Virus record (IMG/VR): IMGVR_UViG_2651869781_000004
Source of the DNA: a virus
Lineage: Duplodnaviria; Heunggongvirae; Uroviricota; Caudoviricetes
Direction: 5' to 3' (one strand)
Length of the DNA: 20,319 nt
Part shown: piece after piece, positions 5,618 to 17,668 of the stretch
Numbering within the stretch: position 1 is the first letter of the stretch
Layout of the letters: each line of letters opens with the position of its first letter
Translations under genes and position numbers: made by a program
Notes under the pieces: generated by a model
Database searches by the model: none
The model's input: only the letters and a program-made list of their open reading frames with translations
Told to the model about the DNA's origin: nothing

Positions 5618-5689
5618 GACTGCGGGTGCTTGAGGCTATCTGTCTCAGGCATGAACACCAAAAGGCAGATAGAGAAAAGCCCCAGTTAA

Positions 5690-5780
5690 CATTACGCGTC
5701 CTGCAAGACGCTTAACATTAATCTGAGGCCATATCTATGCGACACATAGAGATTAGCCTCTTACGGACCGAAAGGTCAAG
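5690..5780 (-). ncRNA. Candidate Sok-like antisense RNA region (approximate)
   Basis: Expected by analogy with hok/sok loci. Minus strand has TTGACC (complement of 5774-5779) and a GCGTC-N6-GACGC hairpin at 5696-5711. The -10 is weak and boundaries are not determined. Confidence 0.2.
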
Positions 5781-5796
5781 GAGAAGCAGGCTATGA
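5737..5796 (+). CDS. Short leader ORF (19 codons) ending on the hok start codon; mok-like coupling ORF
   Basis: ATG 5737 with TGAGG 9 nt upstream; its TGA stop (5794-5796) overlaps the hok ATG (5793-5795). Shorter than a typical mok. Confidence 0.3.
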   Translation: MRHIEISLLRTERSRRSRL

Positions 5797-10040: not shown

Positions 10041-10116
10041 GGCCCTTTAGCTCAGTGGTGAGAGCGAGCGACTCATAATCGCCAGGTCGCTGGTTCAAAT
10101 CCAGCAAGGGCCACCA
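10041..10116 (+). tRNA. ileZ: tRNA-Ile2 (anticodon CAU, lysidine type), ileZ-like
   Basis: 76 nt with CCA end. 7-bp acceptor stem GGCCCTT/AAGGGCC, D-arm GCTC...GAGC, anticodon loop CTCATAA, T-loop GGTTCAAATCC. Closely resembles E. coli ileX. Confidence 0.85.
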
Positions 10117-10213: not shown

Positions 10214-10290
10214 GCGTTGTTAGCTCAGCCGGACAGAGCAATTGCCTTCTAAGCAATCGGTCACTGGTTCGAATCCAGTACAACGCGCCA
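10214..10290 (+). tRNA. argO: tRNA-Arg (anticodon UCU), argO-like
   Basis: 77 nt with CCA. Acceptor GCGTTGT/ACAACGC, anticodon loop CTTCTAA (UCU), T-loop GGTTCGAATCC. Confidence 0.85.
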
Positions 10291-10754: not shown

Positions 10755-11146
10755 ATACATATCTGGATTATCACCTGTTACGGTAAAAAGTGATTGCTTA
10801 CTGTTTTTGTGAATGGCATTGCAGCAGCCGGATAATGTCAGTGCTGGCTGACGGTGTGCTGGTGGCGGGTGTGGTGGTTGTTGCTTTCCCGTTGCTGAAA
10901 AAGAAAACGCCAGACTGTTAGCCGGGTATCAGTTAGCGGGAGAAATTTTTAAATACTTCACAATTCAGGCGGTTGACTGTTGTCTGGTTTGCGGGGAGTT
11001 TGTTAAAAGAAACTGGCATGGTGAATCCCCCTGTGCGGAGGGGCAATCAGCGAGTAGGTATATGGGATAATCGCGGATTCAGGTGCTGGTACTGAATTCA
11101 CCGGGAGGCACCCGGCACCATGCAATGGCACATAGCGCCACTCTCC

Positions 11147-11172
11147 AGCCCCTCTCCGGAGGGGCTGTTTAT
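11147..11172 (+). terminator. Putative intrinsic terminator (agcccctc-tccg-gaggggct followed by a T-rich tract)
   Basis: 8-bp GC-rich stem with tetraloop followed by GTTTAT. Lies between the two convergent cargo ORFs. Confidence 0.4.
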
Positions 11173-11201
11173 ATTGATTTTGTCAGATGTGAGTAAACTC
11201 C

Positions 11202-13940: not shown

Positions 13941-14147
13941 ATGGAAAAAATCACAACAGGTGTGTCATACACCACGTCAGCGGTGGGGACGGGATACTGT
14001 TTACTGCAGCTGCTGGACAAAGTCTCTCCGTCCCAGTGGGTGGCAATAGGTGTGCTGGGGAGTCTGCTGTTTGGCCTGCTGACGTATCTGACAAACCTTT
14101 ATTTCAAGATTAAAGAAGATAAGCGCAAGGCTGCGAGAGGTGAATAA
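13941..14147 (+). CDS. S: Holin (S-like, Stx-phage 933W type)
   Basis: 68 aa; [68 protein letters not shown], nearly identical to the recalled holin of Stx phages. Stop overlaps the endolysin start. Confidence 0.85.
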
Positions 14148-14644
14148 TGCCTCCATCATTACGAAAAGCCGTTGCTGCTGCTATTGGTGGTGGGGCTGTT
14201 GCCATAGCGTCTGTGCTCATCACTGGTCCGAGTGGTGACGATGGCCTGGAAGGTGTCAGCTACATACCATACGAAGATATCGTTGGCGTATGGACTGTAT
14301 GTCACGGACACACCGGAAAAGACATCATGCCCGGTAAAACGTATACCGAAGCAGAATGCAAAGCCCTCCTGAATAAAGACCTTGCCACGGTCGCCAGACA
14401 AATAAACCCGTACATCAACGTCGATATACCGGAAACAACGCGCGGCGCTCTTTACTCGTTCGTTTACAACGTGGGCGCTGGCAATTTCAGAACATCGACG
14501 CTTCTTCGCAAAATAAACCAGGGCGATATCAAAGGCGCATGTGATCAGCTACGGCGCTGGACATACGCTGGCGGTAAGCAATGGAAAGGGCTGATGACTC
14601 GCCGTGAGATTGAGCGTGAAGTCTGTTTGTGGGGGCAACAATGA
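14147..14644 (+). CDS. R: SAR-endolysin (lysozyme, glycoside hydrolase family 24)
   Basis: N-terminal Gly/Ala-rich signal-anchor-release segment ([20 protein letters not shown]) followed by a T4/P22-type lysozyme core ([18 protein letters not shown]). Confidence 0.85.
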
Positions 14645-15078
14645 GCAGAGTAACCGCGATTATCTACGTTCTGGTCATCTGCCTCATCGTCTGCCTTTCA
14701 TGGGCTGTTAATCATTACCGTGATAACGCCATCGCCTACAAAGAGCAGCGCGATAAAGCCACATCCATCATCGCTGATATGCAGAAGCGGCAACGTGATG
14801 TAGCAGAACTTGACGCCAGATACACAAAGGAGCTTGCTGATGCTAATGCGACTATCGAAAGTCTCCGTGCTGATGTTTCTGCTGGGCGTAAGCGCCTGCA
14901 AGTCGCCGCCACCTGTGCAAAGTCAACGACCGGAGCCAGCGGCATGGGCAATGGAGAAACCCCAGGACTTACAGCAGATGCTGAACTCAATTATTACCGT
15001 CTCCGAAGTGGAATCGACAGGATAACCGCGCAGGTTAACTACTTGCAGGAGTACATTAGGACGCAATGCCTTCGATGA
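14641..15078 (+). CDS. Rz: Spanin, inner-membrane subunit (Rz)
   Basis: ATG 14641 overlaps the endolysin stop. N-terminal transmembrane helix ([18 protein letters not shown]) then a coiled-coil periplasmic domain. Confidence 0.8.
14840..15025 (+). CDS. Rz1: Spanin, outer-membrane lipoprotein subunit (Rz1), embedded in Rz in the +1 frame
   Basis: Embedded ORF with lipobox (LLGVSAC) and Pro-rich mature region ([18 protein letters not shown]). Exact start (14810/14840/14846) uncertain. Confidence 0.55.
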
Positions 15079-15194: not shown

Positions 15195-15425
15195 CTAAAA
15201 GCTAAATACTTGAGCAAGAACAGCTAACGCTGCGCAAAAAGCAGCCCGTTTATTCCATTTACTTTGTATTTCAATGGCTTTAAAACAACCCAGTGATGAG
15301 AAACTGCCTTGTTCCGTTTTTGGTGGGTGTTCTTTGGAAGATGCAAAACATGAAATAATCCAAAAAATGGCGGAAAAAATTCCAAAAATTATTGAAGGCA
15401 AATGATGCTCTTTCAAAAACTCCAT
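15195..15425 (-). CDS. Small membrane protein (76 aa), opposite strand to the lysis genes
   Basis: Minus-strand ORF with two hydrophobic segments (LPSIIFGIFSAIFWIISCF and AAFCAALAVLAQVF). An inverted repeat at 15151-15177 with T-run lies just beyond its stop. Occupies a bor-like position but is not Bor-like in sequence. Confidence 0.35.
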   Translation of the reverse strand: MEFLKEHHLPSIIFGIFSAIFWIISCFASSKEHPPKTEQGSFSSLGCFKAIEIQSKWNKRAAFCAALAVLAQVFSF

Positions 15426-16100
15426 GACTTAACTCTCTTAAAAGTTGCTAAACATCGCTCGCAAACAAGAAAGAAAAGTTCTGTTGCGAGCACTCCACAA
15501 TTTAAACGCCACACAAGCAGCTATTAGGTGGACGGTTCCAAGATTGCTATCAACTGCCACCCGAATACCGTCAAAACTTGACGTCCAACCAAGAATTATT
15601 GAGTTGTAAACTCAACGCAATGATCTGGTTGGTATAAATGTGACATATGTCATGAATCGACTAGTTGAGATAGTCAAGATGGGCTTGCTTGACATCATCA
15701 CCACAACCGGAGCCAACAATGGCAGATTGCGTTACCCAGATTTGATAAAGGCATTTTAGCCTGACATAACTATGCACTGTATCGTCGCCGTATTCCCGCA
15801 TCAACAGAGACCACAGCCCGAGAGGGAGACTCCTCTGCGCGAGTGTGCGGGGATAATCAAAAACGATACACACCGGGGTTTACCGTGTTAACGGAGCGCG
15901 GCGTTGTCCCCTCATGGTCGCTGGTCCGGTGCGATGGTGGAAGAAACCGGACGATGTGTTACCTCGCAAGCTCTGTTATGTCATGTGTCTGATTTGTGAT
16001 TTAAGTCGGATAATTGTCATTGCCATTAAGCAGAGGATTGATGACCGACAGGGCTGCATTGTTAGAATAAGACTTATTCTTATCTATGCCGGGAATAAAA

Positions 16101-16427
16101 ATGAAAAGAAATCTTCCGTTAATTATTTTGTTGTCTTCTTTGGTTATGGGCTGTACGCAACATAAAACAGATATGCCTCGACAGTTGGTTAAGGCATTAC
16201 CACAATATCCGGCCTATGCCGCGGCAAATTATATAAAGGGACGGGTTGATGTGAAGTTTGATATTGGTGCTGATGGTACTGTCACCCGAATTGAGTTTAT
16301 CCGTTCAGAGCCGCACCATCTGTTTGATGAGCAGGTTGTAAAGGCGATGGCAAAATGGCGATTTGAGAAGGACAAGCCGCGTAAAGGCGTGAAGAAAACA
16401 TTTATCTTTAGTCCTTCAGCACCCTGA
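16101..16427 (+). CDS. Small lipoprotein with a TonB C-terminal-like domain
   Basis: Signal peptide plus lipobox (MKRNLPLIILLSSLVMGC). The mature part PQYPAYAAANYIKGRVDVKFDIGADGTVTRIEFIRSEPHHLFDEQVVKAMAKWRFE matches the TonB C-terminal domain pattern (compare E. coli TonB PVYPARAQALRIEGQVKVKFDV...AMRRWRYE). Confidence 0.65.
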   Translation: MKRNLPLIILLSSLVMGCTQHKTDMPRQLVKALPQYPAYAAANYIKGRVDVKFDIGADGTVTRIEFIRSEPHHLFDEQVVKAMAKWRFEKDKPRKGVKKTFIFSPSAP

Positions 16428-16938
16428 TTATTTTATCAGAAGTTAATTATCACTCTGTTGCTATTCAGTACATCCCTGCAGGGTAAAGTCTTGTTTCGCC
16501 GGATATGAAGATGAAATATTGTTAGAAGACAGTAGCTACCGGTTCCTGTAACCGAACGTTCATTTCTCGTTATTTTTCATGCTGGCCGGGCGCAGGTGCT
16601 TTGCATCTGTTGCCAGCCTTCTCCTGCAGGCTTCAATAACCCATGCCGAAAAATTACCCGATCCCTTACGTTCAAGGGCAATATGGATTTGATTAATCAT
16701 CTGGTTTGGGAAGCTTTATTTTTTGATGACATTGTGTTTTTCCGTGTTCAGTGCTGCTGATTTGTATTGTCTTAAGATGTCTTTACGTTAAGTTGACACA
16801 GATCAATTAATGCATGACTTGGACAAAATTGATTATTTGTCGTGGTTTTATGGTGTACGTGGGATGTGTGATGGTATTTATATAAATGATAATTATTATC
16901 ATTTTATTGGGTCCTTTCCGGCGATCCGGCAGGCTACG

Positions 16939-16950
16939 GGGCGGCGACCT
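16939..16950. other. cosN cohesive-end site (GGGCGGCGACCT), with lambda-like cosB extending to about 17100
   Basis: gggcggcgacctcgcgggttttcgctatttatgaaaatttt matches the left end of phage lambda as recalled, about 170 bp upstream of the Nu1 homologue. Confidence 0.75.
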
Positions 16951-17119: not shown

Positions 17120-17668
17120 ATGAACGTCAATAAGAAAAAACTGGCCGATATTTTTGGCGTTGATGTCAGGACCATCACCGCCTGGCAGAGTCAGGGGTTA
17201 CCACTAGTTTCTGGTGGAGGGAAAGGGACTGAATCAGTTTTTGATACAACTGCTGCCATTCAGTGGTATGCGCAGAGGGAATCTGATATTGAAAACGAAA
17301 AACTCCGTAAAGAGATCGAGGATTTGAGGGCTGCCAGCGAATCAGACCTTCAGCCCGGCACCATTGATTACGAACGTTACCGACTGACGAAGGCACAGGC
17401 CGATGCACAGGAGCTGAAAAATGCTCGTGAGGAAGGCCTTGTCCTCGAGACGGAGTTATTTACCTACATCTTTCAGCGAGTGGCACAGAATATATCAGGG
17501 ATCCTTGTCCGTGTCCCTCAGACACTGCAGCGTAAATACCCTGATATATCACCCGCACATCTTGATGCTGTGAAAACTGAAATCGCGAAAGCATCCGATG
17601 TGGCTTCTGAAGCCGGTGAGAATGTGCGCAGGTGGATTGATGATTTCAGACGAACTGAGGGCGGCTAA
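17120..17668 (+). CDS. nu1: Terminase small subunit (lambda Nu1 homologue)
   Basis: [36 protein letters not shown]...[48 protein letters not shown] is highly similar to lambda gpNu1. RBS GGGGAG. Confidence 0.85.

What the first reader, a model, noticed from the sequence alone, without database searches (positions are those of the whole stretch)
16101..16427. Phage-encoded lipoprotein consisting of little more than a TonB C-terminal domain, between the lysis genes and cos
The 109-aa product has a lipobox signal peptide and then a segment matching the TonB C-terminal domain (YPAYAAANYIKGRVDVKFDIGADGTVTRIEFIRS...AMAKWRFE). It lacks the TonB proline-rich spacer and N-terminal ExbB/D-interacting helix. 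A periplasm-facing TonB-C decoy anchored to a membrane could compete for TonB boxes of outer-membrane receptors. That would be a plausible route to superinfection exclusion of TonB-dependent phages and colicins, or to modulating iron uptake. It occupies the late-region accessory position where lambda carries bor.
Basis: partly seen in the sequence, partly recalled or inferred. Interest (0 to 1): 0.65.

Follow-up and report, generated by a model that had tools for sequence, protein, structure and literature searches.

The report
Prophage lipoprotein made of TonB's C-terminal domain
A lambda-like prophage, of a kind found in about 30% of complete E. coli genomes, carries a small outer-membrane lipoprotein that is just the receptor-docking head of the TonB energy transducer; it most likely occupies the docking sites of nutrient receptors without powering them, but its function has never been tested.

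Summary
The ORF at 16101-16427 (+) encodes 108 aa (not 109). It has a lipoprotein signal peptide (Cys18, +2 Thr). Residues 26-104 align without gaps to E. coli TonB 153-231 at 41% identity. The AlphaFold model superposes on TonB C-terminal domain (CTD) crystal structures at 1.1-1.4 Å. The TonB membrane helix and proline-rich spacer are absent. The gene lies between Rz/Rz1 and cosN.

It is not a broken piece of host tonB. It is under purifying selection (dN/dS 0.13) and belongs to a distinct clade of small TonB-C lipoproteins found on chromosomes, a plasmid-like contig and phages of Enterobacterales.

Two findings are new. Most family members have a Fur-box-like sequence 25-65 nt upstream of the start codon, though the window allele keeps only a degenerate 13/19 remnant. 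And 70 of 73 distinct phage contexts place the gene directly after the lysis cassette.

The phage-21-type allele is transcribed in an LF82 lysogen, as a moron would be. Homologues occur in 1618 of 5426 complete E. coli genomes and in phage 21.

Fur-linked chromosomal relatives also allow a positive role in iron uptake. I found no functional study.

The parts
16101..16427 (+). CDS for the 108-aa TonB-C lipoprotein (RefSeq WP_000828067.1, 'TonB family protein')
   Evidence: ORF list and sequence; RefSeq annotation of the identical DNA; dN/dS 0.13 against the phage-21 allele
16101..16154 (+). Lipoprotein signal peptide, residues 1-18 (MKRNLPLIILLSSLVMG|C); the Cys18 codon is 16152-16154; the +2 residue is Thr, so there is no Asp retention signal
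   Evidence: Read from the sequence; Cys invariant in the family alignment; lipobox found in 219 of 226 viral copies
16176..16412 (+). TonB C-terminal domain, residues 26-104, equivalent to E. coli TonB 153-231; beta3 edge strand is about residues 94-103
   Evidence: Pfam, NCBIfam and PDB matches; AF2 model pLDDT 96-99 over residues 31-100; Foldseek rmsd 1.1-1.4 Å to 1U07, 2GSK_B and 2GRX_C
16041..16068 (+). Promoter-like site: ATGACC, 16-nt spacer, TAGAAT with an extended -10 (TGTTAGAAT at 16060-16068)
   Evidence: Consensus scan; the -10 block is conserved in the 72%-identical phage-21 allele and aligns with TAGTAT in P0035-phage, Raoultella and Klebsiella promoters
16064..16084 (.). Perfect palindrome AGAATAAG-A-CTTATTCT (16064-16080) overlapping a 13/19 Fur-consensus remnant (AATAAGACTTATTCTTATC, 16066-16084); it occupies the same position as the strong Fur-type boxes of relatives
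   Evidence: Fur control of the window allele is inconclusive
16091..16094 (+). Ribosome-binding site GGGA, 6 nt before the ATG
   Evidence: Sequence; AGGAATAAAAATG is conserved in phage 21
13941..15078 (+). Context: complete lysis cassette upstream, with holin 13941-14147, endolysin 14147-14644, Rz 14629-15078 and embedded Rz1 14810-15025
   Evidence: PHROG matches; RefSeq annotation
16909..16950 (+). Context: cosQ (16909-16920) and the cosN cohesive-end sequence GGGCGGCGACCT (16939-16950) downstream; nu1 starts at 17120
   Evidence: Exact-pattern positions; comparison with the lambda right end

Best explanation
The gene encodes a small lipoprotein that, after lipidation at Cys18 and Lol sorting, should hang from the inner leaflet of the outer membrane on a linker of about 8 residues. 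There it displays a single TonB C-terminal domain directly beneath the outer-membrane transporters.

Shown here:
- The lipobox and the TonB-C fold.
- The absence of any energy-coupling part.
- Purifying selection.
- Membership of a distinct, mobile family of lipoprotein-plus-TonB-C genes.
- A conserved promoter block just upstream.
- A fixed position at the end of the phage late operon.
- Transcription of the sister allele in a lysogen (from a paper).

Inferred:
- The domain binds TonB boxes by beta-strand addition to its beta3 edge, as TonB does.
- Because it cannot pull, it acts as a membrane-concentrated competitive occupant of TonB boxes on transporters, and on incoming colicins that carry their own TonB box.
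- This would dampen TonB-dependent entry of phages (T1/phi80 type), colicins B/D/Ia/M, microcins and albomycin, at some cost to siderophore and B12 uptake.
- In relatives, expression appears to be tied to iron starvation through Fur, the condition in which those receptors are most abundant.
- In E. coli prophages the operator is degenerate (type A, the window allele) or lost (phage-21 type). The gene would then be expressed from its own promoter in lysogens, and probably by read-through during late lytic transcription.
For: Fold and sequence:
- establish the TonB-C domain. The model fits the BtuB-bound and FhuA-bound TonB states at 1.1-1.2 Å.
- PQYP (TonB 161-164) and F180, G186, F202, W213 and F230 are all conserved.
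- The protein fails the full-length TonB equivalog cutoffs and has no TM helix or Pro-rich region (sequence).

Anchoring:
- The lipobox is invariant in the family.

Precedent:
- Exported TonB fragments 33-239, 103-239 and 122-239 block TonB-dependent transport.
- From my own memory, not re-read here: Koedding et al. 2004 JBC reported that TonB-86, which has the same N-terminal boundary as this domain, binds FhuA, inhibits ferrichrome uptake and protects against phi80.
- Phage outer-membrane lipoproteins Llp and Cor act on the periplasmic face of FhuA, and acylation aids complex formation by confining both partners to the membrane plane.

Expression and selection:
- Lysogenic expression is 8-fold above prophage background for the Perceval allele.
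- dN/dS is 0.13.
- The conserved -10 block is shown.

Prevalence:
- 1618 of 5426 complete E. coli genomes.
Against: - There is no phenotype, binding or localisation data for any family member; I found none in 10 literature searches.
- There is no PADLOC match.
- Chromosomal, syntenic family members lie behind Fur-type boxes. They would inhibit their own iron uptake exactly when it is needed.
- TBDTs vastly outnumber TonB, so a transporter-directed decoy must be abundant. The only expression figure is a modest 8-fold above prophage background.
- TonB R166 (which contacts FhuA, from memory) is Tyr in nearly the whole family, and the Q160 position is variable. The interface may therefore have diverged.
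- The shortest inhibitory fragment documented in a text I could read here is TonB 122-239, which is longer than this domain.
Confidence: 0.45

Rival explanations
1. Positive accessory of iron acquisition. The outer-membrane-anchored TonB-C domain helps TonB-dependent uptake. It could recruit periplasmic binding proteins (FhuD and BtuF have been reported to bind TonB, from my memory), or it could pre-position or prime TonB boxes. On this reading, prophages carry it as an iron-fitness moron.
For: Fur-box-like sequences at -25 to -65 occur in 17 of 26 non-viral-set loci, spanning about 11 lineages, against 0.6% of background windows. They are also present in phage subfamilies. That is the signature of iron-uptake genes. 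Some chromosomal copies are stable and syntenic. Phage 21 and Perceval also carry sitABCD.
Against: No known mechanism lets an uncoupled TonB-C domain stimulate transport, and every experimental precedent for free TonB-C fragments is inhibitory. The two E. coli alleles have a degenerate Fur box or none. The sitABCD co-carriage is probably one prophage lineage. There is no conserved neighbouring iron gene.
Confidence: 0.2
2. TonB trap. The domain pairs with the C-terminal domain of TonB itself through beta-strand or edge dimerisation, as seen in crystals of TonB-C fragments. It would hold the scarce TonB at the outer membrane and so shut the whole system down at low copy number.
For: The best structural match is the dimeric 92-residue TonB fragment 1U07. 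The mature length of 91 aa matches that fragment. This route solves the stoichiometry problem of a transporter-directed decoy.
Against: The physiological relevance of TonB-C crystal dimers is disputed (title of PMC3005593, listed). I have no direct evidence, and heterodimer modelling could not be run with these tools.
Confidence: 0.1
3. Envelope or lysis accessory. The lipoprotein tethers the outer membrane to peptidoglycan, or modulates the last step of lysis, as the PHROG label 'Rz-like spanin' implies.
For: phrog_1267 is labelled 'Rz-like spanin'. 70 of 73 phage contexts place the gene right after an endolysin or spanin on the same strand, across five lysis-module types. TonB-C has been proposed to bind peptidoglycan (from my memory: Kaserer et al. 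2008).
Against: A complete holin, endolysin, Rz and Rz1 set is already present. The protein has no C-terminal TM segment, is not proline-rich or Cys-rich like o-spanins, and is not nested in or adjacent to Rz (about 1 kb away). Chromosomal and plasmid members have no lysis genes nearby. It is expressed in lysogens. The slot after the lysis genes is a general moron site, where bor also sits.
Confidence: 0.07
4. Another lysogenic-conversion role unrelated to TonB boxes, for example a Bor/Iss-like host-interaction or serum-resistance lipoprotein that merely reuses a stable fold.
For: It is a moron-type gene adjacent to bor, enriched in pathogenic lineages (EPEC, EHEC, B2), with lower GC than its surroundings (43% against 49%).
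Against: There is no similarity to Bor/Iss. The TonB-like core and PQYP motif are retained under purifying selection. The Fur link points to iron and TonB physiology.
Confidence: 0.08
5. Non-functional remnant: a captured 3' fragment of a bacterial tonB gene, as the database names 'partial tonB-like' and 'TonB fragment' suggest.
For: Database names.
Against: dN/dS is 0.13 at saturated dS between two intact 108-codon alleles. A lipoprotein signal peptide has been acquired and is invariant. The protein falls in a separate clade from canonical TonB CTDs. Hundreds of intact copies exist.
Confidence: 0.02

Closest known systems
C-terminal domain of E. coli TonB (PDB 1U07; complexes 2GSK with BtuB and 2GRX with FhuA)
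   Same: The fold is the same (rmsd 1.1-1.4 Å over 76-83 residues). The alignment is gapless at 41% identity over TonB 153-231. The PQYP motif, the aromatic core and the beta3 edge strand are all present.
   Different: It has no N-terminal TM helix and no proline-rich spacer, so it cannot couple to ExbB/ExbD. Its N-terminus is a lipoprotein signal instead. R166 is replaced by Tyr and Q160 by Leu. It lacks the last 8 TonB residues. It belongs to a separate clade.
Engineered periplasmic TonB fragments (Howard et al. 2001, as cited in bioRxiv 10.1101/2020.01.05.895219; Koedding et al. 2004, from my memory)
   Same: These are uncoupled TonB C-terminal pieces placed in the periplasm, and they act as dominant-negative inhibitors of all TonB-dependent uptake. 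This is the mechanism proposed here.
   Different: Those are laboratory constructs, soluble and overexpressed. This is a natural gene, lipid-anchored and with its own promoter. Inhibition by it has not been shown.
Phage T5 Llp and the Cor proteins of phi80, N15, HK022 and T1
   Same: They are small phage-encoded lipoproteins of the outer-membrane inner leaflet that act from the periplasmic side on a TonB-dependent transporter and give superinfection exclusion.
   Different: They have a different fold and no detectable sequence relation. Llp and Cor are specific for FhuA and work allosterically. A TonB-C module would target the TonB box common to all such transporters and to TonB-dependent colicins.
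Lambda Bor (Iss-like lipoprotein)
   Same: It is a small outer-membrane lipoprotein moron in the same region between the lysis genes and cos.
   Different: The sequence is unrelated and the gene is on the opposite strand. Bor coexists with the TonB-C gene in phage 21 and Perceval.
o-spanin Rz1 and u-spanins (the label of phrog_1267)
   Same: It is an outer-membrane lipoprotein signal encoded near lysis genes.
   Different: The genuine Rz/Rz1 pair is present upstream. This protein has a globular TonB-C fold, no Pro-rich rod and no C-terminal TM segment, and it has non-phage family members.

Membership tests
TonB_C domain family (Pfam PF03544 / TIGR01352) | Profile score above the curated cutoff | tested here: met
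   PF03544 57.2 bits against 24.6; TIGR01352 57.1 against 27.1
TonB_C domain family (Pfam PF03544 / TIGR01352) | Three-stranded sheet plus helices fold of the TonB CTD, with the conserved YP motif | tested here: met
   AF2 pLDDT 87 overall and 96-99 in the domain; Foldseek probability 1.00 and rmsd 1.1-1.4 Å to E. coli TonB CTDs; Y36-P37 = TonB Y163-P164
TonB_C domain family (Pfam PF03544 / TIGR01352) | Binds TonB-box peptides by beta-augmentation | not testable with these tools
This needs AF-multimer, ITC or NMR.
Functional TonB energy transducer (NCBIfam PRK10819 equivalogs) | N-terminal signal-anchor TM helix that contacts ExbB/ExbD | tested here: not met
   The N-terminus is an 18-residue lipoprotein signal that would be cleaved. 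The match to TonB models covers only their last ~85 positions.
Functional TonB energy transducer (NCBIfam PRK10819 equivalogs) | Proline-rich periplasm-spanning spacer and a score above the equivalog cutoff | tested here: not met
   50-74 bits against cutoffs of 265-448. Only 8 residues separate Cys18 from the domain.
Bacterial lipoprotein (SPase II substrate, Lol-sorted to the outer membrane) | Lipobox [LVI][ASTVIM][GAS]C after a K/R n-region and a hydrophobic h-region | tested here: met
   MKRN-LPLIILLSSLVMG-C18; invariant Cys in the family; detected in 219 of 226 viral copies
Bacterial lipoprotein (SPase II substrate, Lol-sorted to the outer membrane) | No Asp at +2, so no inner-membrane retention signal | tested here: met
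   +2 is Thr in the window allele, and Ser, Thr, Ala or Val in relatives. Actual acylation and localisation were not tested.
Spanins (label of phrog_1267) | o-spanin: short Pro-rich lipoprotein gene embedded in, overlapping or abutting an i-spanin gene. u-spanin: lipobox plus a C-terminal TM segment. | tested here: not met
   Rz/Rz1 are present separately at 14629-15078 and 14810-15025. This gene is about 1 kb downstream, encodes a globular domain, and has no C-terminal hydrophobic segment (sequence).
Llp/Cor superinfection-exclusion lipoproteins | Sequence or fold relation to Llp/Cor | tested here: not met
   Only TonB-type hits in Pfam, PHROG and PDB. The resemblance is functional and topological only.
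Known anti-phage defence systems (PADLOC-DB 2.0) | Match to any defence-protein model | tested here: not met
   0 families at E<=1
Moron (autonomously expressed prophage cargo gene) | Own promoter and transcription in the lysogen | tested here: inconclusive
   A promoter-like extended -10 is conserved between alleles. The 70%-identical Perceval allele is transcribed 8-fold above prophage background in LF82. I have no expression data for the window allele, and the scan found no terminator between the stop codon and the next ORF.
Fur regulon | Fur box overlapping the promoter | tested here: inconclusive
   Family level: matches of at least 14/19 in 17 of 26 loci against 7 of 1235 background windows; 15-16/19 in P0035-type phages. 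Window allele: only 13/19 at the homologous position (P about 0.04). Phage-21 allele: none. Binding was not tested.

The most novel reading that the evidence does not exclude
A natural, outer-membrane-tethered, energy-uncoupled TonB head domain is an unrecognised control and defence layer of TonB-dependent transport in Enterobacterales. Its ancestral form is switched on by iron starvation through Fur. Lambdoid prophages in roughly 30% of E. coli have captured it and partly deregulated it. The result would be one-protein, broad-spectrum exclusion of every TonB-dependent phage, colicin and microcin, by occupying TonB boxes or trapping TonB itself.
Probability: 0.3. Interest if true: 0.8.

Novelty: new variant of a known kind. 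Interest (0 to 1): 0.6.

Why it matters
TonB-dependent transporters are the gateways for siderophores and vitamin B12. They are also the entry route for many phages, colicins, microcins and siderophore-conjugated antibiotics such as albomycin and cefiderocol-type drugs.

If a single prophage lipoprotein throttles all of them, it would be a new and very broad superinfection-exclusion and bacteriocin-immunity mechanism. It would be present in about 30% of complete E. coli genomes, including EHEC, EPEC, ST131 and AIEC lineages, and in the classical phage 21. It would also be a hidden variable in phage-therapy host range, in colicin ecology and in uptake of Trojan-horse antibiotics.

If the Fur-linked family instead assists uptake, it is an unrecognised component of iron acquisition.

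Either outcome is directly testable with standard E. coli genetics. The gene has been annotated since the first O157 genomes, and I found no functional study of it.

Tried and rejected
- **TolA-type domain.** TonB_2 (PF13103) scores only E=0.004, below its cutoff. TolA structures match at E>0.07 and TM about 0.36. Rejected.
- **Spanin.** Rejected (see the membership test).
- **Pseudogene or fragment of host tonB.** Rejected by dN/dS, intact alleles and clade placement.
- **Self-exclusion, i.e. the carrier phage uses a TonB-dependent receptor.** The J C-terminus of phage 21 is a lambda-J-type receptor-binding domain, 57% identical to lambda's. The receptor cannot be read from it, so this gives no support and I dropped it.
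- **The strong Fur-type box at 16888-16906 as a regulator of this gene.** It lies downstream, beside cosQ, and lambda has the same element while lacking the gene. It is unrelated to this gene.
- **A conserved chromosomal partner gene.** None was found; the neighbours are unrelated housekeeping genes.
- **Viral structure library (BFVD).** No fold match.
- **afdb50 fold library.** Not available.
- **First genome-contig scan.** A 12-sequence alignment had no usable conserved stretch; the scan succeeded with 6 sequences.
- **Literature.** Ten full-text searches found no functional study. The primary papers Howard 2001 and Koedding 2004 are not held.
- **IMG/VR scan with the window-led alignment.** It returned only near-identical type A copies. 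Two further scans with distant members were needed.
Full report
**1. The observation**

The window is a lambdoid prophage late region. The 801 bases around the finding are 100% identical to E. coli O127:H6 E2348/69, where the ORF is annotated 'TonB family protein' WP_000828067.1. The window as a whole is closest (97.8% identity, 96% coverage) to prophages of O111:H2 and related strains.

The ORF at 16101-16427 (+) is present. A GGGA ribosome-binding site lies 6 nt upstream of the ATG.

The N-terminus, MKRNLPLIILLSSLVMG|C, is a textbook lipoprotein signal: a K/R n-region, a hydrophobic core, a lipobox and Cys18. The Thr at +2 means there is no Asp retention signal, so by the established Lol sorting rule the protein goes to the outer membrane.

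Residues 26-104 match the TonB C-terminal domain:
- Pfam TonB_C E=2.4e-15.
- TIGR01352 above its cutoff.
- E=1e-16 to the solved E. coli and Salmonella TonB C-terminal domains. That alignment is gapless: query 26-104 equals TonB 153-231, with 32 of 79 residues identical.

An AlphaFold2 model built on an 18-sequence family alignment has mean pLDDT 87, and 96-99 across residues 31-100. It superposes on 1U07, on TonB in the BtuB complex (2GSK_B) and on TonB in the FhuA complex (2GRX_C), at 1.1-1.4 Å over 76-83 residues.

Nothing corresponds to the TonB membrane helix or proline-rich spacer. The protein scores 50-74 bits on full-length TonB equivalog models whose cutoffs are 265-448.

Upstream is a complete lysis cassette: holin, endolysin, Rz and embedded Rz1. 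Downstream are cosQ (16909-16920), cosN (GGGCGGCGACCT, 16939-16950) and nu1.

**2. It is a real, selected gene and not a tonB fragment**

E. coli carries two deeply diverged alleles. Type A is the window allele, found in EPEC and EHEC prophages and in Stx1a phages. Type B is the phage-21 allele, also found in Perceval of AIEC LF82, and in ST131 and NC101.

The two alleles are 72% identical in DNA and 70% in protein. Both are intact at 108 codons. They have dS about 1.4-1.5 (saturated) and dN 0.19, giving dN/dS 0.13.

A profile-free search of 1.84 billion representative proteins found many other short proteins (about 105-135 aa) with the same architecture of lipobox plus one TonB-C domain.

In a neighbour-joining tree of the 79 domain columns, the phage proteins nest among these small lipoproteins, apart from the canonical enterobacterial TonB C-terminal domains. 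This tree has no bootstrap support, so I treat it as indicative only. The clade has its own motifs that differ from TonB: YPxYAxAN, SEPxHLFD and KWRFExNKP.

The database names 'partial tonB-like' and 'TonB fragment' are therefore misleading.

**3. Where the family lives**

Chromosomal copies:
- Copies with conserved synteny occur in four Raoultella species and one Klebsiella, next to a large glycosidase and a LacI-type regulator.
- A copy occurs in Serratia grimesii between minCD and dsbB.
- Copies occur in Pantoea next to fliDST.
- Copies occur in other contexts next to ahpCF or next to PTS and Usp genes.
- No partner gene recurs.

One copy is on a plasmid-like contig beside ParM/StbB and a Qat defence system.

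Phage copies are numerous. There are 15 GenBank phage records, including phage 21, and at least 220 IMG/VR loci.

After removing duplicates I analysed 73 distinct phage contexts in three subfamilies. In 70 of them an endolysin or spanin gene lies upstream on the same strand. Five different lysis-module types are involved, and a terminase lies downstream wherever I could recognise one.

The slot after the lysis genes and before packaging is thus strikingly constant. In phage 21 and Perceval, bor lies next to the gene on the other strand, so the gene is an additional cargo gene and not a bor substitute.

Homologues are present in 1618 of 5426 complete E. coli genomes.

**4. Expression and regulation**

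A consensus scan found an extended -10 promoter-like site (TGTTAGAAT, 16060-16068) 33 nt before the ATG. This block is an island of conservation between the two E. coli alleles. It aligns with TAGTAT in P0035-type phages and in Raoultella/Klebsiella chromosomal copies.

A transcriptome study of LF82 lists the Perceval allele ('TonB fragment', LF82_160) among morons transcribed 8-fold above the prophage background in a lysogen (PMC9928086).

The gene is on the late strand. Only weak terminator-like hairpins lie between Rz and the gene. It is therefore probably also read through from pR' late in infection; this is an inference.

The unexpected result concerns Fur. Immediately after the -10 block, most family members carry a Fur-type palindrome, for example TGATAATTATTATCA.
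- Among 26 loci outside the IMG/VR set, 17 have a match of at least 14/19 to the Fur consensus within 150 nt upstream of the start. These lie 25-65 nt before the ATG and represent about 11 independent lineages.
- Only 7 of 1235 background windows of the same size in the same loci reach that score.
- Phage subfamilies show the same at a fixed position: the P0035 type at 15-16/19, and the Klebsiella type at 12-14/19.
- The window allele keeps only a 13/19 remnant at the homologous place. It overlaps a perfect palindrome, AGAATAAG-A-CTTATTCT.
- The phage-21 allele has lost the box.

A consensus match is not proof of Fur binding. Still, the family as a whole looks iron-regulated, like tonB and the transporters themselves (established knowledge). 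The E. coli prophage copies look partly or wholly released from that control.

**5. Mechanism**

The common denominator of all serious readings is that this is an energy-uncoupled TonB-box-binding module held at the periplasmic face of the outer membrane.

The domain keeps the beta3 edge strand (residues about 94-103, equal to TonB 221-230). It keeps the PQYP segment (TonB 161-164). Both lie at the TonB-box interface in the BtuB and FhuA complexes; that interface assignment is established knowledge from the literature, and I did not re-derive the contacts here. It also keeps the aromatic core residues F180, G186, F202, W213 and F230.

The position of TonB Q160, where Q160L suppresses TonB-box mutations (PMC11658791), is Leu here but varies across the family. 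R166 is Tyr in nearly all members.

TonB periplasmic fragments exported to the periplasm block TonB-dependent transport. From memory, TonB-86, which has the same N-terminal boundary as this domain, binds FhuA, inhibits ferrichrome uptake and protects against phi80 (Koedding et al. 2004; I could not re-read it).

Lipid anchoring would concentrate the domain in the plane where TonB boxes emerge, as argued for Llp.

Its main difficulty is that Fur-controlled chromosomal relatives would then inhibit iron uptake during iron starvation. That keeps three other readings alive:
- a positive accessory role (0.2);
- a low-copy trap for TonB itself (0.1);
- envelope or lysis roles (0.07).

The remnant hypothesis is refuted.

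**6. Comparison with known systems and novelty**

The protein is a member of the TonB_C domain family. It is not a TonB: it fails the TM, spacer and equivalog tests. It is not a spanin, not Llp/Cor and not Bor, and it matches no PADLOC model.

Functionally its nearest analogues are laboratory TonB fragments and the FhuA-specific phage lipoproteins Llp and Cor.

The gene itself has long been annotated, and its presence in phage 21 is on record. What I did not find described in any searched text is the following:
- the family as a distinct lipoprotein clade;
- its Fur-box association;
- its constant slot after the lysis genes;
- any function.

I rate it a new variant of a known kind. It is of moderate to high interest because it is very common and cheaply testable.

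**7. Limits**
- All mechanistic steps beyond fold, anchoring signal, selection, context and operator-like sequences are inferred.
- The tree is a simple distance tree on 79 columns.
- Fur boxes were scored by consensus mismatch against an empirical background, not by binding data.
- TonB residue roles come from the literature and from memory.
- Expression evidence exists only for the sister allele.

Noticed in passing
window 16888-16906 (with cosQ 16909-16920 and cosN 16939-16950): A perfect 7-1-7 Fur-type palindrome, TGATAATTATTATCA, matches the 19-bp Fur consensus at 16/19 (0.01 such matches expected by chance in the window). It sits immediately left of cosQ. Lambda has TGATAATCATTATCA at the same spot, and phage 21 has a weaker version. 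This looks like a conserved cos-flank element; I know of no described role for it.
   Followed up: partly
window 16064-16080: A perfect palindrome, AGAATAAG-A-CTTATTCT, overlaps the predicted -10 and start region of the TonB-C gene. It is essentially invariant across the type A viral contexts (one has a single base change) and is absent from the phage-21 allele. It could be an operator for an unknown regulator or a decayed Fur box.
   Followed up: partly
window 15195-15425 (-): A 76-aa hydrophobic ORF (phrog_14357, function unknown, annotated hypothetical in RefSeq) occupies the position where lambda, phage 21 and Perceval carry bor.
   Followed up: partly
window 16560-16700 (-): A DUF3950 / YlcI-YnfO family small ORF (phrog_949) lies between the TonB-C gene and cos. 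It is annotated next to the TonB-C gene in every E. coli record listed for that region.
   Followed up: no
window 5624-5795, 10987-11176, 10041-10116 and 10214-10290: Rfam and ARAGORN find a sok antitoxin RNA (hokD locus), the sRNA STnc100, and two tRNAs. One tRNA has anticodon CAT (annotated tRNA-Ile in RefSeq) and the other is tRNA-Arg (TCT). They lie upstream of the lysis genes.
   Followed up: no
L025 9968-12001 (phage 21) and Perceval (PMC9928086 Table 1): Both phages that carry the type B TonB-C lipoprotein also carry sitABCD. This transporter imports iron and manganese across the inner membrane, and as far as I know does not depend on TonB at the outer membrane. The pairing could offset a TonB-damping protein, or it may simply reflect one prophage lineage.
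   Followed up: no
L009 6738-7301 and L003 1277-1903: A DUF1440 membrane protein lies directly downstream of the chromosomal family member in Raoultella. A DUF1440 protein is also encoded in the late region of Klebsiella phage ST13-OXA48phi12.4, which carries a family member. This may be coincidence.
   Followed up: no
L031 5001-5390 and 6866-10390: One family member (P0065) sits on a plasmid-like contig right after parM/stbB-type partition genes. It is about 1.5 kb upstream of a Qat (QatA/QatB) anti-phage system.
   Followed up: no
PHROG phrog_1267: The PHROG family that contains this protein is labelled 'Rz-like spanin'. The label appears to be an annotation artefact of its position next to lysis genes, and it will propagate into phage annotations.
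   Followed up: yes
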